Positions 24,098 through 56,507 of a stretch of 64,000 nt of DNA are shown here, one piece after another (position 1 is the first letter of the stretch; each line of letters starts with the position of its first letter). Source of the DNA: Eledone cirrhosa. Lineage: Eukaryota. The position numbers were made by a program, and so were the translations under genes. A model generated the notes under the pieces. That model worked only from the letters and a program-made list of their open reading frames with translations. It ran no database searches and had not been told where the DNA came from. Location: NCBI GenBank assembly GCA_964016885.1, contig OZ024741.1, positions 143,592,001 to 143,656,000 of the forward strand, in the 5' to 3' direction.

Positions 24098-25217
24098 CGA
24101 TTTGATCATTATCAACAACTTTAGGACTTCCTGCACATGTACGGTCTTCGTGTTATAATCATATATATATATATAGATAGGTTCATGTGTATGTGTGTGT
24201 GTGTGTGAGAGAGAGAGAGAATAATCAGTGTTTGTTTTATACACCTTTGCATATAAGAAAAAGAAAAGATTAAATGGCGAAATTAATAGAAAGGGAGCAG
24301 CAGACTCTATTTGTCTAAGCAGTATATTCTAGGTGGTGCATCCTATGGATAAAATGGCGAAGATGTTGCCATGGAGAACAGCCAGTGAGACCCGCTGTAT
24401 CAGCCACACGTCCTCATGGGGATCCTTCCTCAGGTGTTCCTAACTTTGAGGAGGAAAAACGGCAGTTCGGGGACCGAGGACACCAGAGGTCTCGACGGCA
24501 ACTGACACGTAAAGCAGTCAATCAAATCCTGGTATTTAACCATCGTCTTCCCAACATTATGGGTGGCAGTGCCGGGGTTTGTTACTGAAATGACAGGCTT
24601 GGGGGCAGAGGACGTGTCGTAGCAGGTGGTGTCACAGATTAGAGATTTACTTCCTTCAGTTGAGAAGAGGGTTAACTCTTTTGGGTGCTTGTCATCACCA
24701 CAGTCAAAGCTGGCAGGCTCCAGCTATCATGGGAAATCATTGAAGTTAATTACCTGTCTCCCACATCTTTATATTTTAACTTTCCATATTCACAGTATCA
24801 TTAGAACAAAGTATCATTTGATATCATTTATTTATCTCATTCTTTTATTTTGGCAATTATCTAAAAAAAGAAGGTGAAATTGTGTATTGGCTAATAGAAT
24901 GTTGAATCTTGGCGACCTTGTGTTAGAATCTCTGACACAATACCTTGCTGTATTTAGTTACTGGCTCTTTAAGGTTCTGAGTTTCACTTCTGCAAAAAGT
25001 CAACTATGCCTTTCATCCTTCTAGGGTTGAAACCTGTCAAGTACTGGAGTGAATTTAATCAACTGATACTGGTGTTTGATAAAATCTCCAAGCAAGTGAC
25101 CATTGCTTAGTATCTTGAATGAATCATCTTGATGCTGCTTGCCCTTTAAAGGTGCCTGAGTCTGTAAGACTCCATTTCCCATAGCAAGGAGCAGCAAAAC
25201 CCAGTATTATTATCTTT

Positions 25218-25287
25218 ACGGGGTCGATAAAATAAAGTACCAGTAATGAACTGGGTAATTGCTGGCCTTGTGCCTAAAGTAGAAACA
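25218..25287 (+). mobile_element. 5'-truncated tRNA-SINE (Nin/Deu-like core family)
   Basis: GGGGTCGATAAAATAAAGTACCAG...GGCCTTGTGCCTAAAGTAGAAAC; TSD ATTATTATCTTT at 25206-25217 and 25288-25299. Older copies lie at ~15680-15830, 24900-25060 and 25300-25530. Confidence 0.85.
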
Positions 25288-26269
25288 ATTATTATCTTTC
25301 AGTGGAGCTAGGCAATGGATTGGAAGAGTCGATAGAGTGTTTAGTTAAGGTCATTTATGTTCTGAGTTCAAATTCTGCAGAGTTTAACTTTGCCTTTCAT
25401 CCTTCTGGGGCCGATAAAATAAAATACCAACCACATAGTAGGGTGGTTGTAATCAAGACCTCACGCCCACCACCATCTGCAAAAAAAAAAAAAAAAAAAA
25501 TTGTTGGCTTTGTGCCCAAATCAGAAATCATTACCTTTCAATGCAACAATTTTACACAAATTTGCGGAATAACTCGGTGCAAGCATAGCTGTATGGATAT
25601 CGAGTTCACTTTGCAACTGCATGATTTCTGATTTATGATACCCTGAGTATATATATATATGTATGTATGCATGTATGTATGGTACATAAAGATGTGGAAA
25701 GCACAACTCTCTTCTGTCACCTGAGTCATAAACCATGCAGATCTACAGCTGACCTAAAAGTCATGGATTCATATGGGATGACAACGAAGAATCAATAAAA
25801 GATGGCAATCATCTGTGAAGACACTGCAATCCTCATGTACGTATGTATATATATATATATGTATGTAAGTATGTGTGTGTGCATGCGTGTGTATGTGTGT
25901 ATGCATGTGTATGTGTGGTGGGTTGTGGTGGTGGAGAGGTGTAGCGAAATCTCAATGAGATTGTTCCCATGTTTTCAAATAGTGATTCCTTAGAGCCTGC
26001 ATCGTTGTTGTTTCAATTTACTGACTCTGTTTAAAAGAAAAGGTCATCTGTTTAATGTTTCTGGGATGCAGTCATTATAAATATAAGAAATTTTGATGCC
26101 AGAGAGTAATTGATTATGGCTGGAATGGATTTGATCATAGATTTGCTTGATCAAATCTGACCCGGTCATAAACGACGACGACAACAACAGCAACATCAAT
26201 TATCTACAATTGTTATCAGTAGATAATCAGTACACATGTACTTCTCAGTCAAATAATTAACTTATAATA

Positions 26270-26696
26270 TTATGGATACATTGAAGCTCCGATGTCTGGC
26301 AACTGACTTGGTAAACATCCACAAAATTATTAACCATCTTGCCAACAACAACTTTTGATTTCCATGTGTCTAACAGACGTGGGCATGCCTACAAAGTCAG
26401 AAAACAGCACAGCTCCCATGGCTTTCGGAAACATTTTTTCACGCTCAGAGTTGCTGAAGTATGGAACAAACTGCCTGCATCACCTGTTAGTTACCAAGAC
26501 ACTGCATCCTTTAAAACCTCCATGCTTCCTGAAATTCGCCAACACTATACCTGATATGCCTCCTCCGTACACATTCACACATGTATATCATGATTCATAC
26601 ACTGTTCATTTTCCTGACATTTGTACATTATTCTATGTACTATACATGCACCTTTGATGAGTTGTAGTGCACCTGAGCACTGTACACAATAATTTC
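26270..26696 (+). mobile_element. CR1-group LINE 3' fragment
   Basis: ORF 26339..26554 has RGHAYKVRKQH...RKHFFTLRVAEVWNKLP, the CR1 ORF2 C-terminal motif, followed by a 3' UTR. Confidence 0.85.
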
Positions 26697-26800
26697 AATC
26701 CCACTGAGGTTAACGTTGCCTTTCATCCTTATGGGGGTTGATAAAATAAAGTACCAGTAATGCACTGGGGTAAATGCTGGCCTTGTGCCAAAAGTAGAAA
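26697..26800 (+). mobile_element. 5'-truncated tRNA-SINE between CR1 and Tx1
   Basis: Core GCCTTTCATCCTT..GGGG.TGATAAAATAAAGTACCAG and tail GGCCTTGTGCCAAAAGTAGAAA. Confidence 0.85.
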
Positions 26801-28656
26801 GGGGGATAACATAGATAATTTCAGGCCCATAACTCTGCTAACCACAGAGTTCAAGATTTTGGCTAAGGTGGTCTGGTGGGAGAGGTGCAGACATATGCCA
26901 TTCCAGACAGATCCATCCACGACAACCTCCACCTCATGCGATACATCGTAGAGAGGGTAGCTAGGGAACCTGGCAATTTAGATCAGTTGAAAGCTTTTGA
27001 TAGAGTCAACCATTGTTATCTGGCGGCAGTCCTGAGGGCGGCTGGCTTTGGGCCCGTCTTCAGAGGCTGGATCGCTGCCATGCACAGCGACATCTGCTCT
27101 GTAGTGAGAGTAAACGGTCACCTTTCGGAACCGTTCAACATCATGCGCTCAGTCAGCCAAGGATGTCCCCTCTCGTTCCTGTTGTACGTATTGACTCTCG
27201 AGCCATTACTGCACAAACTGGAGACCCACGCGAACTGGGATGCGGAAGAACCATGTCAGCATATGCAGATGACGTTACAGTAGTGGTGTGGAATGCCAAA
27301 CACATCGAGGCGATCGCCACCACACTAAGAGAATACAAGGTGGTGACAGGAGCAATGATCAACCTGGAAAAGTGGGTGGGCCTGCAAATCGGCACTTGGA
27401 GAGGCAGGTACATGCCGTCCAACAGTGTTGTCGGGTGCTGGATGGATGGACCAGTTAAATTGCTAGGGGTCTGGTTCGGTCCGCACCTCCAGACGGACAA
27501 AAACTGGGACGAGGTGACGAGCAGGGTGGCTTCTCTCACACAGAAATGGACCGAGAGGAAGCTATACCTGAAAGGTCGAGTGGAGGTGGCGAACGCGTAC
27601 ATCGCGTCTGTCATCTACTACCGCCTGACTGTCGTGCCTTGTCCTAAGCCTTGCCTGACTGCGCTGGAGCATTTCCTCTTTCGCTTTTTGTGGAAGGGAC
27701 GTGCTCCGATGGTCAGACGGTCCATCTGCTATCAACACCCGCTACGTGGAGGGCTGGGCATGCCGTGGCTGATGATGCGCAGACATGCGTTCAGACTACG
27801 GCATCTCCACCTCTTCCTCGACAGTGATCAGGTTTGGTCGCCCTTTGCTAGATGCGTATTTCCCCAGCTCGTCTCCTTGACAGAGCTGCAGTCCTGGGTC
27901 AAGCGAGGACCGAGAGGAAGCGCTTGGAGACTGGAATGTCTTCAGGCGTTTGCAGCCCTTGACCAGTCGGGCAATACGATCGGTGGAAACTCCAATTTGG
28001 CGTTCTATAGAAGGTTAGTGGAGGAAAAGAGCGACGATGTCTTTGGGGAGACTCTGGGCGTCGACGAAAACCAACTAGCCAATTCCTAGCCTGGCACTAC
28101 TACCGAGGAGCCTTGCCAGTTTGGGATAAACTCTACAGGCATGGAAGTGCCATCAGCCGAGCCTGTCTGAGATGCATGCAGGGCGATGAAACCATCCTGT
28201 ATGCACTTGTCCAGTGTCCGAGCATTGCTGACTTGTGGGTGTTGATAGCCTGGTGGCCATGGTAAAAGAGATTGAATGGTGGACATGTCTGAAAGGGTCG
28301 AAGACGGGTATTTTCCTCTTCGGTGACACCCTCATTAACTTTTTCAGGTTTCACCTGAAAAGGAAAATCAGGGTGGAGAGGGAAGTGCTGCCTTCCAGGC
28401 AGTTTGTTGAAAGGTGGGTGAGAGAGGCAAGAATGGCCTGTGTGAATGGGCCTACCTTGAGCACGTGCCTGTAGCATCATAGGAGGAAAACTGGAAGAGG
28501 GCTTTAGCAGTCAGGGAAACCGTGGCTTTTTTGTGGGCTTTCTCCACGAGCGACCCTTGGAGGTCTCCCGCCTATTGGGGAATTTTTCCTTGTTTCTTTT
28601 TTTTTGTCACATACTCTGTTTTTGTTATTTACACGCAGAAATGCCCATTTGTACTG
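26801..28656 (+). mobile_element. Tx1-clade LINE, 5'-truncated, internally deleted (copy A1)
   Basis: RT motifs NFRPITLL, LDQLKAFDRV, QGCPLS and AYADD; C-terminal region and 3' UTR are homologous to copy B; frameshifted. Confidence 0.9.
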
Positions 28657-29590
28657 CCCTGTATTGCTGATCGGTGGAACGTCCACCTTGGTGTTCTATA
28701 GAGGACTAGTGGAGAGGAAGAGTGACGAGGTTCTCGGGGAGACCCTGGGCATCGAAGATGATCAGCTGTTCGCTCTCTTCAAGCGAACTTTCAGCCCGGG
28801 GCCTATGAACAACTTCCAGAAATCCCTGGCCTGGCAGTGCTACTGGGGAGCGTTGCCGGTTCGAAATAAGCTCTGCAAGCATGGAAGTGCCGTCAGCCAA
28901 ACCTGTTCAAGATGCGCACAGAGCCAGGAAACTATTGTGCATGCACTCGTTCAGTATCCGTGCATTGCTGACTTGTGGAGCTATGTCGAAAATTTGCTGT
29001 CACATGTAGGATGGATCAGGTTATTGACTGAGTGCATTGTGCAGATAGTCCCGCCGTCCTCCTTTAAGGAGGAGGAAGGGCAGGAAGTTTTCATCTGCCT
29101 GGTGGCCATGGCAAAAGAGATTGTGTGGTGGACAAGGTTCAAAGGATTGAAGATGGACACTTTCCTTTTTGACAAATCCCTGATTAACTTTTTCAAATTT
29201 CACTTGAAGAGGAAAATCAGGGTGGAGAGACAAGTGCTGTCTTCTAGTAAGTTTGTTGAAAGGTGGGTGAAAGTGGCGAGTCTGGTCCGAGTGAATGGGC
29301 CCGCTCTGAGTATGCGCCTGTAGACTGAGGAGTGGGAAAACTGAGAGAGGGCGTTTGCCCTGGTGGTCAGGGTGGCTGTGGTCTTTTGTGTGGTTTTCGC
29401 CACAAGTGACCCTCGGAAGTTTCCCTCCTATTGGGGAATTTTTGTTTTTTTGAATTTTTTGATATTTCTATCTTCTTGTTATAACCTTTTTTACACAGCC
29501 AAAACCCACTTTGTATCGTCCTGTACTGTTCTGTGCCGTCTCTAATGTTTTTCTTCGTGTTAGCCCTTGTGGCCAATAAAGAAACCATTA
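28657..29590 (+). mobile_element. Tx1-clade LINE 3' fragment (copy A2) with complete 3' end
   Basis: ORF 28604..29323 carries a zf-RVT-type motif (CSRC...ETIVHALVQ); ends GCCCTTGTGGCCAATAAAGAAACC(ATT)n. Confidence 0.9.
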
Positions 29591-29614
29591 TTATTATTAT
29601 TATTGTTATTATTG

Positions 29615-29872
29615 TTCTTTGAGTCTCAGTCATTGATGTTATTTAACTGGAAAGTTTGTTGAAATGAATATCAAGCCACTACCTGCAGCCTCAGATATTC
29701 AGGATGTATCGGAGGGTTCTTGCTGTTCCCAGCAAGCATGCCTTTTGAAGTGTTCCAAAAAGCGGGGCTGGACTAATCTTCTTTAACCATCCTTGGAAAC
29801 TCTTTGAGATAGTACCTAGTGCGCCTATGACAATCGGGACGACCTTGATTTCATGGCAGTTCCAAATCCTTC
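29615..29872 (-). mobile_element. R4/Dong-clade LINE 3' fragment abutting a (TAA)n tract
   Basis: Minus strand 29870-29691 translates RIWNCHEIKVVPIVIGALGTISKSFQGWLKKISPAPLFGTLQKACLLGTARTLRYILNI*, typical of the restriction-like endonuclease C-terminus. Confidence 0.85.
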
Positions 29873-32800
29873 ATCACAGAAACAAACTACATACAAACCA
29901 CCACAATTGCATCCCCCGCACACATAAAAATAATAGAAATCACACAAATAAATTACATAATATTTAAAAAAATCTTCCCCACATCAATTGGAGACTACCG
30001 AGGGAACATCACCAAAAGAATATTCACGGATATTCTCGTGGAGAAACCCACCAATGTACGGAGGGATGGATCACCCATCCCTTCCTAAAAAAGAGACACA
30101 GGTAATTTTTGTACCTCTCCCCTCTCACTTGTTTTCCTCCTATCCTAGCCAGAATAGGTAGCATAAATGCACGTGGCCTGGGGTCGTCTTGGAAGCAGGG
30201 CCACCGGTTGAACGATCTCAGGTCGCTAAACATAGATGTGGTGGGCATCAGCGAGACCAGAATCTCCTAGGCACGGACATTCGCACCCATTTTCGGCGGC
30301 TACGTGGTGTACACATCTCCAAGCCGTCCCAGATCTGGGGAATGGGGGGGGGGGGCGTGTTGTTCCAGAGAAGCTGGATCTCGAGATACCGTCTTGTTGG
30401 ACCCAAAGGGTAAGTTGGTGGTACTGGACGTGACCAGCGGAGAAGGACAAGCTTTCAGGCTAGTGGCCACCTATGCCCCAACAGGAGCAGGACGGCCTGA
30501 ATTCTTCTGGCGTCTGGAGACCTTTCTTGGAATGTCCCGCTCTCTATTGTTAGTGGGCGACTGGAACGGGATCTTACATGCACGCTGGGATTGTGTAGGA
30601 TTAGTGGATAGGGGAGGAGGGTGTAAAAGCCTCACAAACCTACTCAGGCGTTTTCAACTGTCGGACAGGTACCGATTGGCTTTCCCGAATGTGCCAATGT
30701 GGACTTGGACAAACCGCATCGGGTCATCCAGATCATATCTAAATAGAATATTTTGTAGCGAAATAGGTCTAGCATAAGCTGTCCACAATTCAAGATAGTC
30801 AGCTACACGGACCACAAATTCGTGATCTCTGTGGTTGACTTAGATAGACTTCATAGATAGGGACCCGGCTACTGGAAACTAAATGCGTCGTTAACAGCGT
30901 GCAAAGCTTACAGAGACCAGATTAGCGAATTAGTTAAGCGAGCATTGACAGGGGCCATCGTCAACAACAAATGGTGGTTTGCCCTGAAAAGAGCATTAGG
31001 TTTAGTAAAGCGCTAGTAACAGAGAAAAATAGAGCAGAAGGAAATCTAGTTAAGAAATTAGACGAGGCGCTTAGTAAAGGCATCGTGACCGACGTGCTTG
31101 TGGCGAAATTGGCTCTCGATAATTTCTCGACGCTAAGCACGAAGGCTGCGTTGTTAAAGCTAAGGTGCGTGCTCTCAGACACGAGGGGATAAAAGCCGTT
31201 CAATGGGCCCGGGTAATAGAAGCGTGTAGTGACAACAAATCCACGATCCGGTCTTTAGTGAACCACGACGGGCACATGATACTCGATCCCGGGCAGATGT
31301 GTGCGGCTTTTCAGCGGCACTTTGCTCAGCTATTCGGGGGCAATGGCGGGCCGCATCGCAGAATGGACTTCAGTGCCTACCTCGAAGGACTGCCGCAGCT
31401 CTCGGCCACTGAAGCAGAGTGTTGCAAAGGCTGATAACGGCTGCTGAAGTACGGGAGGCAATGACTAGCTGCAAAATGGGTAAATCGCCTGGTTTGGATG
31501 GTCTGCCCTACGAATTTTACATACATATTCCAGACTTGTTCGAAGACCTCTTGGCAGACCTCTACTACAACTGGCAGCAGAACGGGAGAATTCTTAGCTC
31601 TGTGAGCCGAGGAGCGGTGGCGCTGCTGAGAAGGGATCCGAACAAGGGGGATAACATAGAAAATTTCAGGCCCATAACTCTGTTAAACACAGACTTCAAG
31701 ATTTTGGCTAAGGTGCTAGCAAAGAGGTTGACGCTTGTCGTTGGTGGTCTGGTGGGAAAGGCGCAAACATGCGCCATTCCAGACAGATCCATCCACGACA
31801 ACCTCCACCTCATGCGATACATCGTAGAGAGGGTAGCTAGGGAACCTGGCATGGGTGGGTCTTTCATCAATTTAGATCAGTCAAAAGCTTTCGATAGGGT
31901 CGACCATCATTATTTGGCAGCAGTCCTAAGAGCAGCTGGCTTTGGGCCAGTCTTCAGAGGCTCGATTGCTGCTATGCACAGCAACATCATGCGCTCGATC
32001 CGCCAGGGATGTGCTCTCTCGTCCTTGTTGTACGTATTGACTCTTGAGCCATTACTGCACAAACTGGAGACGTTGAGGGGGATCCCACGTGAACTAGGAT
32101 GTGGAAGAACAGTGTCAGCTTATACAGATGACATTACCGTAGTGGTATCGAACACCGAATCCATCGAGGCAATCGGCACCACACTAAGAGAATACGAGGT
32201 AGTAACAGAAGCAATGATCAACCAGGAAAAACCAGTAGGCCTGCAACTCGGCACCTGGAGAGGCAGGTCCATGCCACCCAACAGTTTCGTCGGGCGCTGG
32301 GCGGACGGACAGGTTAAATTGCTATAGGTCTGGTTCGGTCTGGACCTCCAGATGGACAAAAACTGGGCTGAGAGGAAGTTATCCCTGAAAGGTCAAGCGG
32401 AGGTGGCGAATGCGTACATCGCGTCCGTCATCTACTACCGCCTGATCATCGTGCCTTGTCCAAAGCCTCGCCTGACTGCACTGGAGCATTTGCTCTTTCG
32501 CTTTTTGTGGAAGGAACGTGCTCCGATGGTCAGGCGGTCTATCTGCTGTCAACACCCGCTACGCGGAGGGGTGGCATGCCGTAGCTGACGATGCGCAGAC
32601 ATGCGCTCAGGCTACGGCATCTCCACCTCTTCCTCGACGGTTATCAGCTGTGGTCGTCCTTTTCTAGACACATGTTTCCCCAGCTTATCTCCTTGGCGGA
32701 GCTGCAGTCCTGGGTCAAGCGAAGACCAAGAGGATGTACTTGGAGACTAGAATGTCTTCAGGCGCTTAAAGCCCTTGACCAGTCAAGAAATACAATAGCT

Positions 32801-33664
32801 GGAAACTCTACCTTGGCTTTCTATAGAGGATTAGTGGAAGGAAAGAGTAACGACATCCTTAGGGAGACTCTAGGCGTCGACGAAAACCAACTAGCCAATC
32901 TCTTCGGGAGAACTTTTGGGCCAAGGCCCATGGACAACTTCCAGAAATCCCTGGCCTGGCAGTGCTACCGAGGAGCCTTGCCAGTTAGGGATATACTCTA
33001 TAGGCATGGAAGTGCTGTCAGCCGAGCCTGTCCAAGATGCGCACAGGGCGATGAAACCGTCCTGCACGCACTCGTCCAGTGTCCGAGCATTGCTGATTTG
33101 TGGGTTTATGCCGAACACCTGCTGTCACGTGTAGAACGGATCCGGCTATCAGCTGAGTCCATCTTGAAGATTGCCCCGCCGCCTTCCTTTAGCCGAGAAG
33201 GGCAGGCAGTTTTTATCTGCCTGGTGGCCATGTTAAAAGAGATTGTATGGTGGACACGTCTGAAAGGGTTGAGGACCGGTACTTTCCTCTTCGGTGACGC
33301 CCTCATTAACTTTTTCAGGTTTCACCTGAAGAGGAAAATCAGGGTGGAGAGGAAAGTGCTGACCTCCAGCCAGTTTGTTGAAAGGTGGGCGAGAGAGGTA
33401 AGAATGGCCCGTGTGAATGGGTCTACCCTGAGCGTGTGCCTGTAGCATTGTAGGAGGAAAACTAGAAGAGGGCATTTGCCCTAGCTGTCAGGGTAACCGT
33501 GGTTTTTCTTGTGGGATTTCTCCACGAGCAACCCTCGGATGTTTCCCCCTTATTGGGAATTTTTCATTGTTTCCTTTTGTCACACTCTGTTTTTGTTTTT
33601 TTTACACGCAGAAATGCCCATTTGTATTGTCCTGTGTTGTCCTTAATGTTATACTTTATGTCAA
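29873..33664 (+). mobile_element. Tx1-clade LINE (copy B): end of ORF1 plus disrupted ORF2 (APE-RT-zinc finger)
   Basis: APE motifs GSINARGL, ATYAP, VGDWN, DH and GYWKLN; RT motifs KSPGLDGLP, LDQSKAFDRV and YTDD; CPRC..H..C; several stops and frameshifts. Confidence 0.93.
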
Positions 33665-33770
33665 CCCGCCGAGGTTAACTTTGCCTTTCATCCTTACGGT
33701 GTCGATAAAATAAAGTACCAGTAATACACTGGGTAATTGCTGGCCTTGTGCCAAAAGTAGAAACAATTAT
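33665..33770 (+). mobile_element. 5'-truncated tRNA-SINE fused to the Tx1 copy B 3' UTR
   Basis: CCCGCCGAGGTTAACTTTGCCTTTCATCC...GTAGAAACAATTAT. Confidence 0.88.
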
Positions 33771-36700
33771 GACGCACATGTGTGAAGACGTACAAGTCTG
33801 CGGAAGAAAAGGTTCGTAATTTTAAGCTGTTTTAAAGTATCATTTTTTGTATTTTCTTGTCATTAACGAAGCATAAGGTACACACCTTGGTACTAAGGAA
33901 GAGAGACCTCTCAATATTCGGGCTTAAAGCCCGAATATTCAGATTTAATTTTTAAATCTTCGATAAAAAATAGCGTCCCCACCAAAAAATATGGAAATTT
34001 TCGACCTTGAAACGGTAAACAACGTACAGGTCAAAAGTTCAAAAACAGCCAGTATAGCTCCCACCAAAATTACTACTACTACTACTACTACAGACATGCC
34101 TGTCGTCCACCCCACGGGATGTGGAGGCAGGACACAAGAGTTACCATCACAACCGCTCCCTTCTGTGATAGAGGCAGTATCATCTCAAAACGACATCACC
34201 ACCACCACCACCGCCACCACCATCACCACCACAACAACAACCCAGAACAACAACGACAATAACACCGACAGCCTCAATGTAAACACTGATGGCGGTGGTA
34301 ACATCAACAACAAACAAAACAACAACAGCAAGAACGACAACACCAACAACAAGAGCAACGGAGGCGCCACCTTTGCAGCGGCCGCAGCGAAAACAAAGCG
34401 CTTCTTCAATGTAGATATTAACGATAGGAACAACAGTTGGCCCAGGTGTGGAGGTTAATTAAACGAGGGAAGTCCTGGGCAAACATAACCATCCCGGATG
34501 AGGCAATAGCAGCCATGCAAAGGAGGACGGTGTACTTTCGATGCATTTCAGTGCAGACACGCAAAGTGGAACTTGCCAGCCAAGCATAAGTCGAGGCTGC
34601 TTTAAAGTGCATCGGGAGTGACATCAAGTACAAAGCAAGGGCCAAGCAGTTCGGTACCATCTCAGTAAAGTTCTAAACCGAGGCCCTTGTTATTAAGCAC
34701 TCGGTGACCCCCTGCAGAACGGAACGCATTATCATGCACCCATCCTACATGGGCAAAAGGACAGTAAAGGTCCGCATTCCCAGGATCCCACCAGGAATGA
34801 ACATATGGTGGCTCCTGGGATGCGTAATCGAGAAGGGGACAGACACTACCCTCCTAGATATCAAAAGGACAAAGAGAGAAGACTGGTCCAGAATAGATTT
34901 GGAGATTCTTCTCCAAATGAAACCAGAGGACATCAACAACATCCCGGATTTTGCCCGCCTGCAAGACAGGACACAATCCAATTAATCACTGAGGGAAGAA
35001 GGCTGCACTGCTCTGTCTGCAGGGAAGCAACACGTCTGCAAGCCTTCTGTCCTCAGTTAAAAAATGCAGGGGTTCGCAAACTTCCTTTATTGCCAATGCC
35101 AGTGGCAGCACGGAAAGCTGCACGACCACCACCACCAAAAATAACACCAAAAATGACACGGGTAACCCCACCAACATCAAAAACAGCCGGACCACCACCA
35201 GCACCGAAACCAATCCAAGGGGAAAACGAGGAAAGCTCTCCCACTCCCCCTACTCCTCCAATTATACACATAGACAGAACCATAAATGCACACACAGACA
35301 CAGATACACTCACATCCACAGACCCTTTGTCTTCCAGCAGTGAAGATGAACGAAAAACCAAAAAGCCAAAAAACAAAAGAGAAAACTCACCAAGAAAAAA
35401 AGTCCCAAACAAAACACAAAAACATACACAACAAAAAATACAGACACCACTAACGCAAACACTTCTCCAATAACATCAACACCAACATCAACATCAACAC
35501 CACCGCCACAATCCCCGAAATGCAAACAGCCTAAACAAACACAAGAACAAATAAACACACAGACACCTGAAATTGCAGACACCACAACTACAACAAACAC
35601 AGACATACCTGAAACAACACCACCAAAACCACCACCACCACAGTCACCAAAACGAAAACAAATAAAACCACACCAACAAAACATAAAAAACTTTGTGCTT
35701 GTCAGAAGGGCCAACGATAAATTGATGGCCCTCTTAGCACGAAGCGAGGATATCCAAACAGAAGGGGAGATGTTTGAATTGAGCACATTTTGCGTGCCAG
35801 AAGCTTCGTTTCTGGTGCGAATGTCGTTCAATTCCTACAAAGAAATTCGAGAGAGCTTTCCTCAAGACGTGGGAACCCCAAACGTGAAACCCACATCGAG
35901 ACTTTTAAAGGGGTTCCCAAAAGAAACCCCATCAACTATGGAGGTCGAACCACCCGACCTTCGCAAGACCCCGGGAGGTAAGTAAACCTTCTCTCTGTCA
36001 TTTAGCTTGCCAACATGGCCATGTTAAGAGTAGGAAGTTTAAATGTTCGTGGCCTGGGGTCACCCTGGAAGCAGGGTCGTCTGCTCAACGAATTCAGGTC
36101 TCTGGAAATGGATGTGATTGCTGTCAGCGAGACCAGGATTTCCGACACGCATGACAACCTCCATCTGTGAGCAGGCCGGGAATGGGAGGTGAGGTAGCAG
36201 TTCTGTTTAGGAAAGGCCTGGATCTCGAAGTAAGGTCGATCTTCTGGGACCCGGACGGTAAGTTGGTGGTCTTGGATGTGAGCAGTAGCGAAGGTGGTGC
36301 CTTTAGACTGCTGGCCGTCTACGCCCATACTGGAGCCGGACGACCGGACTTCTTTAGGCGCCTGGAAACCTTTCTGTGTACGTCTCGCCCTTAACTGTTA
36401 GCGGAGGACTGGAACGGCATCTTAGACGCACGCTGGGATTGTGTGGGAGTAGCTGATAGGAGCGGGGGGTGGGTAGGGTGCAAAAGCCTCAAGCACCTAA
36501 TCAGCCAGTTCCAACTGTCTGACAGGTATCGACTAGATTTCCCCAATGCGTCAGTGTGGACGTGGACCAACCGCATAGGGTCATCTAGATCATATATAGA
36601 CAGGATCTTCATTAGTAAAATAGATAGATAGTGTAAGCTGCCCACTTTTTAAAACGGTCGCCTATTCAGATCACAACTTTGTGATCTGTATAGTCGACCT

Positions 36701-39535
36701 AGATAAAACGCGTAGGTTGGGACCGGGTTACTGGAAGCTGAACATGTCATTTCCGGCACATAAGGCTTACAGGGACCGAGTCAACAATTTAGTTAAGCAA
36801 AAGTTGACAGATGGTGGGGGGCTCTCAAAAGAGAGATTAGAGTAACTTTGATAGAGTTCAGCAAAGAACTAGCGTTAGAGAAAAATAGAAAGGAGGGGGA
36901 GCTGGTAGATAAGTTAGACGAGGCTATTTGTAGTGGCATTGCAACTGACGTGTTAGCGGCGAGAATGACATTAGACCATTTCTTTAATGCGAAACACGAA
37001 GAGCTAAGGCGCGTGCGCTGAGAAACGAGGGAACCAAAGCCGTTCGATGGGCCCGCGTGGCGAACACGTGATAAGCGATTCCAAGCGGATGTGTGAGGAC
37101 TTTCGCCAGCACTTTGCTCAGTGTTCGGGGAAAGTGGCGGGTCGGAGACAGTAGCGGATTTCAATCCCTACCTTGACGGCTTGCCGTGCATCTCGACGGT
37201 CGACGCTGAGCGCTGTGAAAGGCCGATTACTTCAGCCGAAATTCAGGACGCCCTTGTCGGCTGCATGAGGCACAAGTCACCTGGTTTGGATGGCTTGCCC
37301 TACGTACTTTATGTAAATATGCCAGACTTGTTCTCCGATCTCCTCGAAGCGCTCTACTGCAACTGGCAGCAGAATGGGAGTATTCCCAGCTCTGTGAGCA
37401 GGGGAGTGGTGATGCTGATAAGGAAAAACGAGAACAAGAGGGATACATTAGACAACTTCAGGCCCATAACTCTGCTCAATACAGAGTTTAAGATTTTGGC
37501 GAAGGTGTTAGCAAAGAGATTGACGTTTGTCGTCGAGGATTTGGTTGGGGAGACGCAAACTTGCGCAATCCCAGCCAGGTCCATACACGACAACCTCTAC
37601 CTCATGCGATACATCATAGAGAGGGTATGGTGTAAACCTGGCTTCGGTGGAGCACTGATCAATTTAGATCAATCGAAAGCATTCGATAGGGTCGACCATC
37701 GAGCTGGCTTCGGCCCTGTCTTCAGAAGCTGGATCGTTGCAATTCACAGCGGCACCGGATCGGTGGTCAAAGTTAATGGCCACCTCTCGGAACTGTTTCG
37801 GCTCTCCCAATCGGTCCGTCAAGGGAGCCCTCTCTCTTCCCTTCTGTATGTATTGATTCTCGAGCCTTTACTGCGGAAGCTGGAGCTGTTGCAGGTTATC
37901 CCGCTCGAACAGGGATGTGGAAAGGCTGTGTCGGCTTATGCGGGCGACATCACCGTGATGGTGTCGGACACCTCAGAAATAGAGGTGGTCGGCACCTTAT
38001 TGAAGGAATATGAAAGGTTTGACAGGAGCCAAACTTAACCCGGAAAAGACGGTAGGCTTGCAGCTCGGAACCTGGAGAGGCAAGGCCATGCCGTCCAACA
38101 GCGTCGTGGGGCGTTGGATGGACGGACCGGTAAAGTTGCTCGGGGTTTGGTTCGGACCAGACCTCCAGGTAGAAAAGAATTGGGACGAGGTAACGAGCAG
38201 GGTAGCCAGTCTCACCCAAAAATGGGCTGCGAGGAGGCTATCACTAAAAGATCGCGCGGAGGTGGCAAATGCGTACATCATGTATGTCATCTGCTACTGC
38301 CTGACCGTCGTCCTTGCCCACGTTCGCGCCTCGCCAAGTTGGAACGGCTCCTCGTCAAATTCTTGTGGAGAGGACAAGTTTCGTTAGTGAGGCGGTCCAT
38401 CTGCTGCCAGCAACCTTTACGCGGAGGGCTGGGCATGCCGTGGCTAATGATGCACAGACATGCGCTGAGGCTGTAACATCTCCAGATAGTCTGCCTAAAC
38501 GGTGAATAGGTGTGGTCGCCGTTTATCAGATGGGATTTCCGCAGCTTGTTTCTTTGACTGAGCTGCAGTCCTGGGTCAAGAAAAGACCAAGACTCGGTGA
38601 CTGGCACCTGGAATGTTGCCAGGCACTCACTGCCCTCTACCAAGCGGGCAAGTGCGATGACACACTCGGAGAAGCTTTGGGCCTCGACGAAGTCGAACTG
38701 ACCAGTCTGTTCCGGAGGACTTTCGAACCGGGGACGGTGGACAATTTCCAGAAATCCCTCACTTGGCAGTGCTACCAGGGGGCACTGCCGGTTCGGGATA
38801 AACTCTACAGGCACGGAAGTGCTGTCAGACGGACCTGCCCGAGATGCGCACAGAGCGACGAAACCGTTCTGCACGCACTTGTCCAATGTCCGTGCATTAC
38901 TGACTTGTGGAGTTATGTCGAACAGCTACTGTCGCGTGTAGAACGGATCCGGCTATCGGCCGAGTCCATGGTGAAGATCGACCCGCCACCTTGCTTTGGC
39001 CAGGAAGAGCAGGCAATTTTCCTCTGTCTGGTGGCAGTTGCGAAAGAAATTATATAGTGGACCAGATTGAAAGGACTGAAGACAGACACTTTTCTCTTCG
39101 GCCAATTCCTCACCAACTTCTTCAAGTTTCACCTGGAAAGGAAGGTGAGGGTGGAGAGAGAAGTGCTGCACCCCAGTACATTTGCTAAAAGGTGGATGAA
39201 TGTGGCGAGAATGGTCCGTGTGAATGGGCCTACTCTGACCATGCGCCTATCGGCTAGCTAATTTGAGGAGAGGGGTACTCTCCCTGGGTGCCCTAGAAGC
39301 GCAGGGTGGTTCAGGATTGGTGGGGTACCTGAGTCACCCCTGGGTCGTCCACCCTCTATAGGGGAATTTATTTTGTTATATTTATGCGTAGTTTATCTTA
39401 TATTTTTATATCTTCATTGTTAAATTAGTCTTGCCAGTGTGCACTCTTACTCGACCTTATTGTAAACCCCCACTGTTTGTGTCTTTGTATTGTACACTAC
39501 ATGTCGGCCCTTGTGGCCAATAAAGAAATCATTAT
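33771..39535 (+). mobile_element. Near full-length Tx1-clade LINE (copy C), inactivated
   Basis: 5' UTR; ORF1 remnant ~33991-35985 (low complexity, zinc-knuckle-like CSVC...CPQ); ORF2 remnant from MAMLRVGSLNVRGL (36015) to ~39261 with APE, RT and CPRC..H..C; 3' end GGCCCTTGTGGCCAATAAAGAAATCATTAT. Confidence 0.93.
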
Positions 39536-39685
39536 GTTGCAGCAAAGAGTTACGGCCTTTTATGGTCTGAGTTCAAATCCCGCCGAGGTTAACTTTGCCT
39601 TTCATCCTTACAGGGTCGATAAAATAAAGTACCAGTAATACACTGGGTATTTGCTGGCCTTGTGCCAAAGGTAGAAACAAGTATT
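39536..39685 (+). mobile_element. 5'-truncated tRNA-SINE directly after Tx1 copy C
   Basis: B box GAGTTCAAATCCC, core and tail are present. Confidence 0.88.
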
Positions 39686-39861
39686 AGGATTATTATCATT
39701 ACAGTTTTATCACCCCAGTTCTATGACTACCACTTACCATTTGCACAATATATACTGTCGTCTCCACCACCGACGTCACATACCTCCACTATCAACCCTA
39801 CACACACAACTACCATTACTATCACCGATACAACGCACTACCATTAACTTGTACATCTTCT

Positions 39862-40002
39862 TTCCAGCATAGTTACGTCCCTTTACGATCTGAGTTCAAA
39901 TCCCGCCGAGGTTGACTTGGCCTTTCATCCTTACGGGGTCGATAAAATAAAGTACCAGTAATGTACTGGGTAATTGCTGGCCTTGTGCCAAAAGTAGAAA
40001 CA
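39862..40002 (+). mobile_element. 5'-truncated tRNA-SINE with 19-bp TSD
   Basis: TSD ATTAACTTGTACATCTTCT at 39843-39861 and 40003-40021. Confidence 0.92.
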
Positions 40003-40039
40003 ATTAACTTGTACATCTTCTATCCCCATTGTGGGTATG

Positions 40040-41130: not shown

Positions 41131-41366
41131 TATATATATATAATAAGGGCAGTGGATTAACAGAATCATTAAAACGCCGAGCAAAATGTTTGCAACATTT
41201 AGTTACGGTCCTGTACTTTCTGAGTTCAAATCTTGCCACGGTCAAGTTTCCGGCGTTAATAAAATAAAGTATTAGTAAATTACTGAGATATAATCGACTT
41301 TACTCTCCTCACAAATTGCTGGCCTTGTGCCAATGTTAGAAATTATTATTATTTAAGGATTATTTG

Positions 41367-41552
41367 GGCGGTGGATTGGCAGTATTGGTAGAGGGTCGGA
41401 CGCCATGCTTTGACGTATAGAGTTACGGCCCTTTATGGTCTGAGTTCAAATCCCGCCAAGGTTAACTTTGCCTTTCATCCTTACGGGGTCGATAAAATAA
41501 AGTACCAGTAATGCACTGGATAATTTATCGCCTTGTGCCTAACGTAGAAACA
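41367..41552 (+). mobile_element. Full-length tRNA-SINE with 22-bp TSD (inserted in the tail of an older SINE at 41147-41345)
   Basis: A box TGGCAGTATTGG and B box GAGTTCAAATCC; TSD ATTATTATTTAAGGATTATTTG at 41345-41366 and 41553-41574. Confidence 0.93.
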
Positions 41553-42383
41553 ATTATTATTTAAGGATTATTTGTATTTAGATGTATTTTTAATGAGATT
41601 TATAAAGGTGTTACAATGTTATATTACATGTTTTCTAACTCCTGAGTATATGACACACGTACTCAAGCACTGACTGTCTAGCTCTCTAACATAAAATAAT
41701 GATGGTATTTGAAGTTTAAAATTATATTTTGTTTGTATTTATAATTATATTTTCACCTTTAATATACCGAAATAATAGCATTTTCAAATATGAAACTATT
41801 AAAAAAACAAAACGACATCTAGATAAACGGTAATGCTGCGAGTGAGTTGGGTTGCTTCAAAAAGTATTAGAGGGAGGCTCCGTCGTCTCTTGTGACCGAT
41901 TGACAAACTTGGTGTTAAATTATTTTCTTTCGTTTTGATTTAATTTTTTTTTAATGTGAAATATTTACGTAAATAAGTATTGTATATATTATGTGTTTAT
42001 AAATAATTTGAAATGCAACAACCTTAACGGAACGGAGAAAACTATTAAAACTAGGTGGTGCGTTGTATCCTTGAGCAAGACACTTTATTTATTTCATATT
42101 GCTCCAGTTCAACCAACTGGGGAAATGAGTTGCAACGTCACTGGTGGCGAGTTATATCAGCTTTTGTCTTTCTCTTGGACATCATATACAGTGAATATAT
42201 TCTATATATTCATATTGTATATATGAGTTGCGATGACAATGCTGCCAAGCTGCATCTGCCTTAGCCTTTCATTGAACAACATTTGCGACATCGTTGGTGT
42301 CAACTGAATCAGCCTTTGCCTTTATCTTGGACAACATTATATACAGTGTATGTGTGTGTGAGCGCATGTCTATATATATATAT

Positions 42384-45740: not shown

Positions 45741-47264
45741 TATATATATATATATGTATGTATAGGTGTGTGTGTTAGGTAATTCTGAAGGAAAAGGAAA
45801 GGAAAAAGAGTGCTCTATATATAGAACAGAGCTATTTAATTAGAAAGTGAACACAAAATATAACTACTCCATTACCAAAGGTTTCTGGATCCCAGACAAT
45901 AATAATATACGTCTTGATCGGTTGTCAGACATAGATGTTATATTTTGTGTTGTTCACTTTCTAATTAAATATATCTATATATATATATATATCATCGTTT
46001 TAATGTCCGCTTTTCCTGCTAACAAGGATTGTCTATATATATATATAACGTTAGAACTCAATGTATCTATCCTAGAAAGGATAATTGCGGTGAGAATCGG
46101 CAGTGTGACTGGTAGTTCTTGTGGTAGGTGATCACCGCCTGTTCAAACACACACACACACATAGACAGTAGAAGTGTGATAGCATTGTGTATAATAGGGG
46201 TGTGTATGAAAGCATATGCTATATGTTTATATGCAATAAACACACGAGAGCCTCACTATCAAAAGGAAAATTACTCGGTGAAACATGTCAGTAGCCGTTG
46301 AGGATGCCAGACAACTGTTTCAAGATTACTGAAGATGCCACATAATAGAATTGATCTGAAGACACGATTTCATGATTGCAAATAAAACCTTGTAGTGATG
46401 GGAGTCACCATTATGTAGTGAATAGATGTATTCTTTGCAGGATGAATGCAAAAATTGTGATGTTGACAATGTTTATTTTATAATAATAAAATTCACTTGT
46501 TGGTACATCGAATATCGAGTAATAAAATCGTGACAGCAATTATCACTACATTAATTTTCTTACTAGCTACTTCGAGCTAGCATGAATGCATGCATCAAAT
46601 AAAACGATACAGTAGAAGTTGTGTTATATTTTTCAGTTGTAGAGAAATGATAAGGAAGGTTAAAGGATAGATAAGTGTAGAAGGGAACAATATAAGGAAA
46701 CCTACTGTGTGTGTGTGTGTTTATCCTTAGCATATGTTGTTCCTGTAGTTGGTCAATCTGTCGAGCTTGGTAGTTGTACGAGAATAGTAGGTAGAAGACT
46801 GTATTCATGAAGAGAAAATCATAGTGTTAGTAGAACGTTCTTCTGTAGTTTGTTTTATCACTATCTCTGCTGGTGTAGTCTGTGGCCGAGAAGGTGAGAG
46901 CCTGTAAGACCAGGAGACAGAGTAAAAGGTCTGTAGAAAGCGAATGTTTTACATCGTTATTCTGTCAAGGACTGCTGCTCCGTACTCTCTGGTTTGGTTC
47001 TAAAAGCGATTGTATTTATAACAATACTATAGCTAGCTGGCTGTGTATATGGTTTGATTTAGTAGTAGCCATGTGTGTTTCGTCTGTCAAGTGTCTGGGG
47101 TCACAGGTCAAGTGGTATATACATTTTAGAGGCGAGAAATTTTGTATTCGATTTTGAATCTTCGCCAGGTAAAACAGTCAAATTCTGTTTCAACCTCTTT
47201 TTTTTTTCTTTTTCTTTTTCTTCAACACTTTAAATTATTCTCTATACTATGAACTTATGATAAT

Positions 47265-47452
47265 TGTTTCTACTTTTGGCACAAGGCCAGCAATTACCCA
47301 GTGTATGACTGGTACTTTATTTTATCGATCCTGTAAGGATAAAAGGCAAAGTTAACCTCGGCGGGATTTGAACTCAGAATGGCAAGGACCGTAACTCTAT
47401 GCATCAAAGCATGACGTCCAACCCTCTGCCGATACTGCCAATCCACCGCTCT
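47265..47452 (-). mobile_element. Full-length tRNA-SINE with 17-bp TSD
   Basis: TSD TATGAACTTATGATAAT at 47248-47264 and 47453-47469; an older + strand copy follows at ~47470-47670. Confidence 0.92.
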
Positions 47453-47726
47453 TATGAACTTATGATAATAATGGATTGGTAGAGCATTGGATAAAATGCC
47501 ATTGCAATGTTCTGGCTCTCAATATTCTGAGTTCAAATCCTGGCATGGCCAACTTTGCTTCTCATCTTTCTGGGATTGATAAAATAAACTACCAATCAAG
47601 TAATGGGGTTGATTTAATCAACTTTGCTCTTCCTCCAAATTTGCTGGCCTTGTGCCCTCCTTAGAAACCAATATTATGAACCTAATTAAGATATGTTGAT
47701 TTATTTTTCCCTCTGTTTCTTTTCAG

Positions 47727-51061: not shown

Positions 51062-51369
51062 GTAAGTTATAAGATAAAGTGGTGATGATGGTTATGTTAA
51101 AGACCCACCCTCATGCAGGGATACGGTGTACTTATTCATCACTGTTTAACGTCTATTTTCCATGGTTCCATAAATTAGACAGGCTGTTACGTTATGAGGC
51201 CAGAGGAGTTTCTTGCATATAAAATTCATTTTAGGAGTACTGATCCTAAACCAAATATGAAAAAAACAAATTTATTTATTCATTAAGAATCTAATTATAT
51301 ATCAGAAGGGAGGTAGATGTAAAATCCAAACTCACTATCTTCGGTATTCATGCCAAACATGGTCATTTC

Positions 51370-53088: not shown

Positions 53089-53194
53089 CAACTTGCCTCT
53101 AAATGGGACAAACCCGTCTAACTCATGTTAGTGTGGAAGATAGACGTTAAACATTGATGATTATATATATATATAGATTGTGTTATTTCTGTTT

Positions 53195-53581: not shown

Positions 53582-53583
53582 CA

Positions 53584-53614
<31 letters not shown>

Positions 53615-54985: not shown

Positions 54986-55204
54986 GCTACCATTTTTTTC
55001 ATTTGAAAGTGGTGGCTTTTTTTTCCGACACTGGAAATGGTTAATAGATCACATAGCATGTGATCTAAGCTAAGGTTGCATTTATTTTTGAAGTGAAATG
55101 AGGTGTAGTAGCAGGTATGTCCATGTTAGCCATTGGGTGTTGAGTTCTAGTCTGTTGATGATTTATAAAATGTTTGTTCTGTATTGTTTATTTTGTCTGC
55201 ATAG

Positions 55205-55363
55205 ATCCACTGGCCAAATATGGTATCTGACTACACTGCTACTGTGGAGGAATTGAAGAGACAGGTGGCAAAAGGAAGAATACATTATTATGGTGTCAGT
55301 AACTTTGGACCGAAAAACATGAAAAGTATACTGGAAGCTGGTGGTCAACCAATTTCTAACCAG
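55205..55363 (+). CDS. AKR exon 4
   Basis: CATAG acceptor; IHWPNMVSDYTATVEELKRQVAKGRIHYYGVSNFGPKNMKSILEAGGQPISNQ includes the catalytic His (HWP) and the GVSNF motif; donor GTATAT, phase 0. Confidence 0.95.
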
Positions 55364-55507
55364 GTATATTTGAAATGATGGTGATGATGATGCACCACAA
55401 CACATCAATACACACATACATATACACCAACATATACACACACACACACATGCATACACTTATGTGCACACTCACCCACATACTCATACATTTACCTGCA
55501 CACCCAC

Positions 55508-55810
55508 CAACTCAACCTGTCCATAATGTCTCATAGGTAAGCTACACTGACACACACCTACATACATACAGACACCTCTATATGCAAACATCCACTCAAC
55601 CTATCCATAATGTCTTATCCCAGGTTGTCTCCACAGATATATACATGTACACATACAAACAGATGCATATACACATACATCCACTCAACCTATCCATAAT
55701 ATCTTGTTTCGGTAGGCTACACTAACACATGCCGACATACAAACACACCATCCATACACATATACCCACTCAACTTGTCTATAATATTTCGTTACAGATA
55801 GGGTACAACT
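55508..55810 (+). repeat. ~86-bp minisatellite (4 units) in AKR intron 4
   Basis: CTCAAC(C/T)T.TC.ATAAT at 55511, 55595, 55684 and 55769. Confidence 0.85.
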
Positions 55811-55976
55811 TACTGTGGCGTACCATAGAACATGACGTTCAACCACTTTGTGTGGAGAAAAACATTTCCATTTTGGCTTATTCACCTCTACAACAAGGTT
55901 TACTTACTGGGAAATACCTAGCCCCAGATAGTTTACCTGAGGGTCGAAGACGTGGCAAACTCTTCTCAAAATCCAG
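55798..55976 (+). CDS. AKR exon 5
   Basis: TTACAG acceptor; IGYNLLWRTIEHDVQPLCVEKNISILAYSPLQQGLLTGKY...KLFSKS includes the YSPLxxGLLTGK cofactor-binding motif; donor AG|GTGACA, phase 2. Confidence 0.95.
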
Positions 55977-56042
55977 GTGACATTTCCATGATTTTTTTAA
56001 GTTAAACATTAAAAAAAAAAAAAAAAAAATTGTTTTGTTTAA

Positions 56043-56507
56043 AAGCTACCACGATATGAATTGGGCAGTAAATGTTAAAAATATGACAACAATGATGTTA
56101 GGTTGTTACCTTGCAGTTCTTTATATGTTTAAAGGATAAAATCCCTTCATCGAAAGGTTAATAGAAGAAACTATATGGCAGCTTAAGAGTGTTTTTTTTT
56201 TCTATTAATCTTTTAATGAGATTTTATCCTGAAATATAAGGAGCTATAAAGGACTGCAAGGTAACATCCTAACATTATTATATTTTTAACATGCAGTATC
56301 GGTAGAGGGTCGGACGCCATGCTTTCCAGCATAGTTACGTCCCTTTATGATCTGAGTTCAAATCCCGCCGAGGTTGACTTTGCCTTTCATCCTTACGGGG
56401 TCGATAAAATAAAGTACCAGTAATGCACTAGGTAATTTGCTGGCCTTGTGCCTAAAGTAGAAACAATTATATTTTTAACATTTACTTTCCAATTTACATT
56501 GTGAGCT
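56043..56507. mobile_element. Palindromic MITE-like element interrupted by a SINE
   Basis: Arms GTAAATGTTAAAAATAT..ATGTTAGG.TGTTACCTTGCAGT and ACTGCAAGGTAACA.CCTAACAT..ATATTTTTAACATTTAC are reverse complements. Confidence 0.7.
56293..56465 (+). mobile_element. tRNA-SINE with 16-bp TSD
   Basis: TSD ATTATATTTTTAACAT at 56277-56292 and 56466-56481. Further decayed copies lie at ~48850-49050, 56660-56810, 61970-62155 and 62260-62420. Confidence 0.92.

What the first reader, a model, noticed from the sequence alone, without database searches (positions are those of the whole stretch)
25206..56481. Apparent Tx1-LINE / tRNA-SINE partnership: shared 3' tail and shared ATTA target
Seen: the young SINE ends GCTGGCCTTGTGCCAAAAGTAGAAACAATTAT. 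The two complete Tx1 3' ends read AGCCCTTGTGGCCAATAAAGAAACCATTATT (29562) and GTCGGCCCTTGTGGCCAATAAAGAAATCATTAT (39503), which is the same motif and the same ATT tail. All five SINE copies with readable TSDs (25206, 39843, 41345, 47248, 56277; 12-22 bp) have TSDs starting with ATTA in SINE orientation. Established: SINEs borrow the machinery of LINEs whose 3' end they share; such shared tails are typical of CR1, L2 and RTE partners, and many Tx1 families are sequence-specific. Inference: this SINE is mobilised by an ATT-tailed, ATT-targeting Tx1 family that recognises its 3' end. I do not know of this being described.
Basis: partly seen in the sequence, partly recalled or inferred. Interest (0 to 1): 0.75.

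Follow-up and report, generated by a model that had tools for sequence, protein, structure and literature searches.

The report
SINE mimicking a Tx1 LINE tail
A very abundant short jumping repeat in this genome (likely an octopus relative) ends in the same roughly 25-letter signal, a predicted small hairpin followed by ATT repeats, as a group of long jumping genes (L1/Tx1 type) and likely borrows their copying enzyme, a pairing my literature searches found described for plant and algal relatives but not for animal ones.

Summary
Observation confirmed. The five SINE copies have 12-22 bp TSDs starting ATTA. The SINE tail (81,817 exact copies) matches the last 25 nt of L1/Tx1-type LINEs (2,580 exact) at 15-17 of 25 positions in register for three of four ATT-tailed families; CR1, R4/Dong and RTE tails match at 2-9. 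Both form a predicted 3-4 bp stem with a CUUGU loop, with compensatory changes between families. Ages overlap. Two qualifications: the hairpin is shared by Tx1 families that end in TCTA repeats, so only the ATT end points to the ATT families; and the target is only partly shared, because intact Tx1 5' ends sit in ATT arrays (40 of 51) while SINEs mostly use single ATTA sites (2 of 55 in arrays). Tx1 TSDs are mostly unreadable. L2 tails were not sampled. Best reading: Tx1 ORF2 mobilises the SINE through the tail (0.75), untested by experiment. This scan reached the same reading earlier on other DNA of this genome. New variant of a known kind.

The parts
25206..25299 (+). 5'-truncated young SINE with 12-bp TSD (25206-25217 and 25288-25299)
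26697..26800 (+). 5'-truncated young SINE behind the CR1 3' end; its ATT end is missing and it abuts a Tx1 fragment
28508..29600 (+). Tx1-type LINE 3' part (ORF2 C-terminus to 29323, 3' UTR, tail, ATT run); family B type tail
29562..29586 (+). Tx1 tail: predicted stem 29562-29565/29571-29574, CUUGU loop 29566-29570, AATAAA-containing A-rich spacer; ATT run starts at 29587
30130..33664 (+). Tx1-type LINE (endonuclease, RT and zf-RVT pieces, broken by stops); its 3' UTR runs into a SINE at the 5' arm of the tail hairpin
33665..33774 (+). 3' half of a young SINE between two Tx1 copies, no TSD found
33770..39536 (+). Full-length but broken Tx1-type LINE (family C, about 5.76 kb), flanked by ATTATG on both sides
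39506..39530 (+). Tx1 tail: predicted stem 39506-39509/39515-39518, CUUGU loop 39510-39514, A-rich spacer; ATT starts at 39531
39546..39686 (+). 5'-truncated young SINE directly behind the Tx1 tail, same orientation
39843..40021 (+). 5'-truncated young SINE with 19-bp TSD (39843-39861 and 40003-40021); tail hairpin loop at 39982-39986
41140..41344 (+). Older long-form SINE whose ATT end holds the next SINE
41345..41574 (+). Full-length young SINE (tRNA-like head with B-box, central body, tail) with 22-bp TSD (41345-41366 and 41553-41574)
47248..47469 (-). Full-length young SINE with 17-bp TSD (47453-47469 and 47248-47264)
56277..56481 (+). Near-full-length young SINE with 16-bp TSD (56277-56292 and 56466-56481)

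Best explanation
The roughly 185-nt SINE and the genome's L1/Tx1-type LINEs end in a similar 25-nt signal (CUUGU loop in a predicted 3-4 bp stem, an A-rich spacer, then ATT repeats), and the ORF2 protein of the ATT-tailed Tx1 families likely binds this signal in the SINE RNA and copies it into the genome. Inferred steps: the Tx1 endonuclease nicks the bottom strand at an ATTA site; the freed 3' end pairs with the AUU end of the RNA; a second cut about 16 bp downstream gives the TSD. The SINE likely acquired the tail from an old Tx1 3' end and has kept the fold and spacing rather than the letters. Its short AUU end would let it prime at single ATTAT sites, whereas Tx1 copies end up in ATT arrays.
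For: Shown: 26 of 30 loci with the Tx1 tail have the ORF2 C-terminus upstream, as do 21 of 30 with the GG variant, at 29-75% protein identity and with differing 3' UTRs, so the tail is kept across diverged families (these loci were picked by the tail). An unbroken 1139-aa ORF2 (endonuclease, RT, zf-RVT; closest solved protein human L1 ORF2, E 3e-52, R2 1e-20) ends in this tail. In-register identity to the young SINE tail 16, 17, 15 of 25 for families A, B, D; CR1 2, four AAT-tailed ends 5-9, two GAT-tailed ends 6-8; 1 of 794 null 40-mers reaches 15. Stem pairs: Tx1 pair 3 is G-C 158, A-U 22, G-U 3, unpaired 1 of 184; pair 2 is C-G in Tx1 (176 of 184) and G-C in the SINE (275 of 300). Loop-to-ATT spacing is 16 nt in the young SINE and families A, B, D. 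SINE TSD median 16 bp, 40 of 51 start ATTA; the few readable Tx1 TSDs (L233 15, L282 16, L280 23 bp; L273 and L284 about 17 bp by eye) are in the same range and in ATTA phase. Ages: young SINE 5.7% (half median pairwise), Tx1 A 3.3, B 6.1, C 4.9, D 3.2%. SINEs directly behind Tx1 tails are in the same orientation in 24 of 25 cases. Known mechanism: loop-specific, stem-tolerant recognition was shown for zebrafish L2 LINEs (PMC4176376, passages).
Against: Targets differ in extent: the 15 nt before intact 5' ends are ATT-periodic for 21 of 21 Tx1 A/B and 19 of 30 Tx1 C copies but 2 of 55 SINEs; (ATT)5 follows 4,395 SINE tails (against 81,817 tails) and 1,094 Tx1 tails (against 2,580; patterns overlap but are not identical). 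Readable Tx1 TSDs are 6 of 113 against 17 of 669 in the control, no clear excess, and some of the six are nested-element matches. With unanchored 60-nt local alignment the signal weakens: young SINE against family C P 0.19 and D 0.38, while some non-Tx1 ends reach nominal P below 0.05 (R4d 0.047; old SINE against R4a 0.008, RTEb 0.022). The SINE tail scores as well or better against TCTA/TA-tailed Tx1 families (24-32) than against ATT families (16-25). The hairpin is not more stable than shuffles (z from -0.87 to 1.27) and pair 4 is unpaired in 70 of 184 Tx1 and 121 of 300 SINE tails; family counts are few independent events. No L2 tail was sampled. No experiment.
Confidence: 0.75

Rival explanations
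1. Relic tail, relaxed use: the SINE tail came from a Tx1 ancestor, but today mobilisation depends only on the AUU end pairing with a nicked ATTA site, by Tx1 without reading the hairpin or by any ATT-tailed LINE such as the CR1.
For: CR1 (6,594 exact tail matches) also ends in ATT repeats; the SINE tail is only 60-68% identical to present Tx1 tails; SINE targets are looser than Tx1 targets.
Against: CR1 5' junctions have ATTA within 25 nt in 2 of 26 copies against 66 of 104 SINEs, and none of its 3 of 26 candidate TSDs starts with ATTA. SINE stem pairs 1-3 are kept in 297, 281 and 292 of 300 tails (picked by the loop motif), and the young subfamily lost about 30 nt upstream of the hairpin but kept the hairpin.
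Confidence: 0.12
2. The true partner is a LINE family that I did not sample (L2, another CR1, or an extinct L1/Tx1 family with a looser ATTA target) with a closer tail.
For: CORE and Deu SINEs are usually paired with L2/CR1 (PMC3747384 Table 1); octopus genomes hold L2 (PMC8967140, passages); my RT survey of about 2 Mb, enriched for Tx1, found Tx1, R4/Dong, CR1 and RTE-like clusters only (clade names from motifs I recognise). The target mismatch fits a different enzyme.
Against: All 14 genome matches to a SINE stem followed by AATAAA lie behind SINE bodies; the SINE-type tail with a non-SINE upstream 4-mer occurs 270 times with no dominant upstream word in the 100 listed (blind to a LINE that also shares the SINE's upstream letters); 190 of 206 tail-like hits in 786 kb were classed SINE or Tx1 and the other 16 looked like truncated copies or chance.
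Confidence: 0.1
3. The likeness is chance or convergence of short A/T-rich ends.
For: The shared stretch is about 25 nt, and unanchored alignment gives some non-Tx1 ends nominal significance.
Against: Match is in register at the 3' end in several families, 1 of 794 null sequences reaches it, and the differences keep the stem.
Confidence: 0.03

Closest known systems
SINEU with Tx1-Mar, crocodilians (Kojima 2015, PMC4494074; abstract and sections 3, 15, 16 read)
   Same: A SINE proposed to be moved by a Tx1 family, on shared target and overlapping age.
   Different: SINEU has U1/U2 heads and a Mariner target; section 16 argues from target, age and shared 5' heads, not from a shared 3' tail. Here the head is tRNA-like and the link is the 3' tail.
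Stringent L1-clade pairs: maize LINE1-1_ZM with ZmSINE2/3; Chlamydomonas L1-1_CR with SINEX-3_CR (Ohshima 2012, PMC3472496, passages; 2013, PMC3747384, passages and Table 1)
   Same: L1-clade LINE and SINE share a 3' end with a hairpin, conserved loop, variable stem and compensatory changes.
   Different: Plants and alga; longer shared stretch (about 50-80 nt); no microsatellite target described in what I read. Table 1 of the 2013 review names no Tx1 partner and no animal L1-clade tail partner.
Kibi (TC)n, Koshi (TTC)n and crocodilian (TTCC)n/(TTTC)n Tx1 families (PMC4494074 sections 3, 15; PMC3812793, passages)
   Same: Tx1 LINEs lying in microsatellites.
   Different: Targets here are ATT and TCTA repeats; no partner SINE is mentioned for those families in the passages read.
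Octopus tRNA SINEs OK, OR1, OR2; tRNA-Core and tRNA-Deu SINEs (cited in PMC4758252, PMC4824008, PMC8967140; passages; the 1994 paper itself not seen)
   Same: Abundant tRNA-headed SINEs of octopus genomes; this SINE may be one of them.
   Different: Identity not tested (no library at hand); no Tx1 partner named in the passages read. Bivalve SINE partners are CR1, CR1-Zenon, L2 and Nimb (PMC11481361, passages).

Membership tests
tRNA-derived SINE | Short, non-coding, interspersed, high copy, with TSDs | tested here: met
   About 185 nt, 81,817 exact tail matches, TSDs in 51 of 104
tRNA-derived SINE | tRNA-related head with A and B boxes | tested here: inconclusive
   B-box-like GTTCAAATC found at position 75; my A-box pattern found nothing although an A-box-like word is visible near the 5' end; ARAGORN 0 genes; Rfam no tRNA match
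tRNA-derived SINE | Pol III transcription | not testable with these tools
   No RNA run was listed
CORE / Deu / V / Meta / Ceph SINE superfamilies | Conserved central domain | not tested
   No domain sequences available from a tool; supplements not read
L1-like LINE (L1/Tx1 group) | ORF2 with APE endonuclease, RT and C-terminal zinc-binding domain, closest to L1 | tested here: met
   Pfam Exo_endo_phos, RVT_1, zf-RVT; human L1 ORF2 E 3e-52 against R2 1e-20
Tx1 clade (as distinct from L1 clade) | RT phylogeny groups with named Tx1 elements | not testable with these tools
   Homologues carry no informative names; the name Tx1 rests on target specificity and on L1-Tx1 being reported in octopus (PMC13282606, PMC8967140)
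Tx1 clade (as distinct from L1 clade) | Target-specific insertion, here in microsatellites | tested here: met
   40 of 51 intact 5' ends preceded by ATT arrays against 8 of 7,800 random 15-mers; related families end in TCTA arrays
Stringent SINE/LINE pair | Shared 3' tail sequence | tested here: met
   15-17 of 25 in register for three of four ATT families; weaker without anchoring
Stringent SINE/LINE pair | Conserved stem-loop with compensatory changes | tested here: met
   short stem, few independent events, not unusually stable
Stringent SINE/LINE pair | Same target site and TSD length | tested here: inconclusive
   Same ATTA start and strand, overlapping lengths in few readable Tx1 cases, but array versus single-site difference
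Stringent SINE/LINE pair | Concurrent activity | tested here: met
   SINE about 5.7%, Tx1 families 3-6% (small samples, partly picked by exact tail match)
Stringent SINE/LINE pair | Tail-dependent mobilisation by the LINE protein | not testable with these tools
   Needs a retrotransposition or binding assay

The most novel reading that the evidence does not exclude
An animal L1/Tx1 lineage uses a two-part address on its RNA: one lineage-wide CUUGU hairpin for ORF2 binding, kept across families with different microsatellite targets (ATT, TCTA), and a terminal repeat that pairs with the target and helps choose it. The dominant SINE of the genome exploits this by mimicking the fold with different stem letters and a minimal AUU end, which frees it from the arrays that confine its LINE. 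This would be a first tail-based Tx1/tRNA-SINE pair in animals and a natural test of how much target choice comes from the RNA end rather than the endonuclease.
Probability: 0.4. Interest if true: 0.7.

Novelty: new variant of a known kind. Interest (0 to 1): 0.5.

Why it matters
L1-clade LINEs are the stated exception to tail sharing: over 800 families but 3 SINEs with L1 tails in Ohshima's survey, all in plants or an alga (PMC3747384, PMC3472496). A tail-sharing animal case would support stringent recognition as the older state of the L1/Tx1 group and give a small defined RNA element for binding and structure work. It would also name the likely driver of the SINE expansion typical of octopus genomes, and the contrast between SINE and LINE targets makes the roles of endonuclease and RNA-DNA pairing separable by experiment.

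Tried and rejected
The repeat finder and the ORF listing on the whole window were swamped by the microsatellite at 1-11250. A naive TSD search on 60 Tx1 loci gave almost nothing because tails carry later insertions: of 42 full-length copies, 26 have an R4/Dong end, SINE or Tx1 directly behind the 3' ATT array. Dong/R4 as partner rejected: AAT ends on the opposite strand and no tail match; only R4a and R4d ends were tied to an R4-type ORF, R4b, R4c and the two GAT-tailed ends were not. RTE rejected on the same test. A SINE subfamily ending directly in TCTA: 0 matches (the pattern would miss a SINE that kept its ATT before TCTA). SINE bodies with a complete Tx1 tail: 2 in the genome, too few to mean anything. 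A longer Tx1-like SINE tail (a lead recalled from other octopus species, from no call) was not found in my loci; in two other species' contigs the 30-nt Tx1 tail segment has far more depth than the Tx1 UTR beside it, a weak hint only, since contig depth is no copy number. No RNA holder listed. Empty pre-insertion sites could not be read from the laid runs. Naming the clade through homologue names failed; the protein atlas gave no answer. Literature: nine searches answered found no description of a Tx1/tRNA-SINE tail pair; the 29 'TX1' hits in PMC4176376 are a protein fragment name. Repbase, Dfam, SINEBase entries, Ohshima and Okada 1994, Kojima and Fujiwara 2004 and all supplements were not seen and may bear on novelty.
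Full report
Setting. The window is G000:C2:143592001-143656000 in a 3.0-Gb genome. Its repeat make-up (L1/Tx1-type, Dong/R4, CR1, RTE, one dominant SINE) fits published octopus genomes (PMC8967140, PMC13282606; passages); the organism is my inference.

Observation. The two LINE tails and the SINE tails are at the stated places. The five TSDs are 12, 19, 22, 17 and 16 bp and all start with ATTA. Exact pattern counts in the genome are 81,817 for the 25-nt SINE tail and 2,580 for the 22-nt LINE tail, with 0 for the reversed controls.

The LINE. Of the first 30 tail loci, 26 have the ORF2 C-terminus upstream. Full-length copies are 5.8-6.0 kb and fall into families with different 5' ends and 3' UTRs, here A to D. 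One natural copy has an unbroken 1139-aa ORF2 with endonuclease, RT and zf-RVT domains, closest to human L1 ORF2 among solved proteins. Placement in Tx1 rather than L1 was not tested by a tree with named elements.

The tail. Aligned from the ATT start, the commonest young SINE tail matches families A, B and D at 16, 17 and 15 of 25 positions and C at 10 (1-nt insertion); CR1 2, AAT-tailed ends 5-9, GAT-tailed ends 6-8; 794 genomic 40-mers before ATT runs average 6.8 and 1 reaches 15 (null sequences with tail-like words had been removed). Over 60 nt without anchoring the contrast is weaker: young SINE against C P 0.19, D 0.38, R4d 0.047; old SINE against A 0.08, D 0.10, R4a 0.008, RTEb 0.022. 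No other part of the SINE matches the six reference LINE copies (best E 0.07). Five of six window tails fold with a CUUGU loop on a 3-4 bp stem, the old copy at 41305 differently, and none is more stable than shuffles. Among 184 Tx1 and 300 SINE tails picked by the loop motif, pair 1 is C-G in nearly all (its G is fixed by the pattern), pair 2 is C-G in Tx1 and G-C in the SINE, pair 3 is G-C or A-U in Tx1 (1 of 184 unpaired), pair 4 is often unpaired. The SINE difference can also be read as loss of one whole C-G pair. These are few independent events, but each keeps the stem.

The hairpin is lineage-wide. A degenerate search showed abundant further tails. They belong to related LINEs (ORF2 62-73% identical to the ATT-family ORF2) that end in TCTA or TA repeats (3,733 matches including duplicates). 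The SINE tail is as similar to these as to the ATT families, yet no SINE tail is directly followed by TCTA repeats. So the hairpin points to the lineage and the ATT end to the ATT families.

The target. In loci not chosen through Tx1, 51 of 104 SINEs have a TSD with unique sequence (control 4 of 618), median 16 bp, 40 starting ATTA, preceded by C, T or A. For Tx1 the same test gives 6 of 113 (control 17 of 669); convincing cases are L233, L280 and L282, with L273 and L284 by eye. CR1 gives 3 of 26 (control 2 of 250), none starting ATTA, and ATTA lies near 2 of 26 CR1 5' junctions against 66 of 104 for the SINE; CR1 and truncated Tx1 boundaries are rough and many may be later deletions. Intact Tx1 5' ends follow ATT-periodic sequence in 21 of 21 (A/B) and 19 of 30 (C), SINEs in 2 of 55, random DNA in 8 of 7,800. 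Median ATT array lengths are 22.5 nt before and 26 nt after 42 full-length Tx1 copies and 8 nt after SINEs. A pure-ATT TSD is unreadable, which explains part of the low Tx1 count. Some copies show a few extra ATT-like bases between TSD and element start (L273, L282), so Tx1 RNA may carry AUU at its 5' end too (inference). The shared part is the ATTA start and strand (24 of 25 SINEs behind Tx1 tails, and 6 of 7 behind CR1 tails, are co-oriented); the array preference is not shared.

Age. Young SINEs from random loci (n = 21) are 5-8% from their consensus (half median pairwise 5.7%); the older long form (n = 43) 10-23%. Over the last 300 nt, Tx1 A 3.3%, B 6.1%, C 4.9%, D 3.2%. Another species' contigs hold both SINE and Tx1 stretches at 90% likeness or more (run X5).

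Other partners. An RT survey of about 2 Mb (biased to Tx1 neighbourhoods, 390 kb random) found no L2 cluster, so L2 is untested directly. Indirect tests found no other abundant carrier of the SINE-type tail.

Mechanism. Shown: tail similarity, stem-keeping changes, ATTA-initiated TSDs, array preference of Tx1, overlapping ages. From established knowledge: target-primed reverse transcription, and loop-specific tail recognition in L2 LINEs (PMC4176376, passages). Inferred: that Tx1 ORF2 binds the hairpin, that AUU pairing sets the priming site, and that the SINE's short end explains its looser target.

Known and new. Tail sharing is the textbook SINE/LINE link. Ohshima's table of pairs names no Tx1 partner and has L1-clade tail partners only in maize/sorghum and Chlamydomonas (passages). 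Tx1 was proposed as the mover of crocodilian SINEU from target, age and 5' heads. Mollusc SINE partners in print are CR1, CR1-Zenon, L2, Nimb and RTE (passages). Nine searches showed no report of this pair; repeat databases, subscription papers and supplements were not seen. Earlier unreviewed notes of this scan reach the same reading on other pieces of this genome; they are not independent evidence. The short texts shown do not mention the TCTA families or the array-versus-single-site contrast.

Verdict. Real, likely a true partnership (0.75), a new variant of a known kind; interest 0.5.

Noticed in passing
L311:1300-2900, L342-L347: Related L1/Tx1 families with the same tail hairpin end in TCTA (or TA) repeats and stack head to tail in TCTA arrays; thousands of copies.
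   Followed up: partly
window 29600-29880 (minus) and many Tx1 loci: Dong/R4-type elements with AAT ends sit tail to tail in the ATT arrays of Tx1; 15 of 42 full-length Tx1 copies have such an end directly behind. Unbroken R4-type ORFs of 1141-1216 aa in L115 and L301.
   Followed up: partly
window 33650-33670: A Tx1 3' UTR joins a SINE body exactly at the 5' arm of the tail hairpin through a short C run: microhomology deletion or template switch.
   Followed up: no
L352: SINE body ending in a complete Tx1-type tail; 2 such in the genome.
   Followed up: yes
window 26300-26697: CR1 3' end with ATT tail family (6,594 exact matches); copy L148 has a 25-30 bp near-duplication at its ends.
   Followed up: partly
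window 1-11250: Very long TA/TG/CGTA microsatellite blocks with apparently duplicated short unique spacers (translations near 2750 and 7190, 3190 and 7630 are identical): tandem duplication or assembly artefact.
   Followed up: no
L057, L059, L060: SINE copies whose 5' about 35 nt are tandemly repeated several times.
   Followed up: no
L064:3-6200: Tandem repeat of about 33-nt units open in several frames for over 1,000 codons.
   Followed up: no
window 59158-59742 (minus): RTE-like ORF C-terminal fragment; GAT-tailed RTE-type ends form a separate tail class.
   Followed up: no
Tx1 loci L061-L120: Internal deletions of 0.2-3.3 kb are common in copies with intact ends.
   Followed up: no
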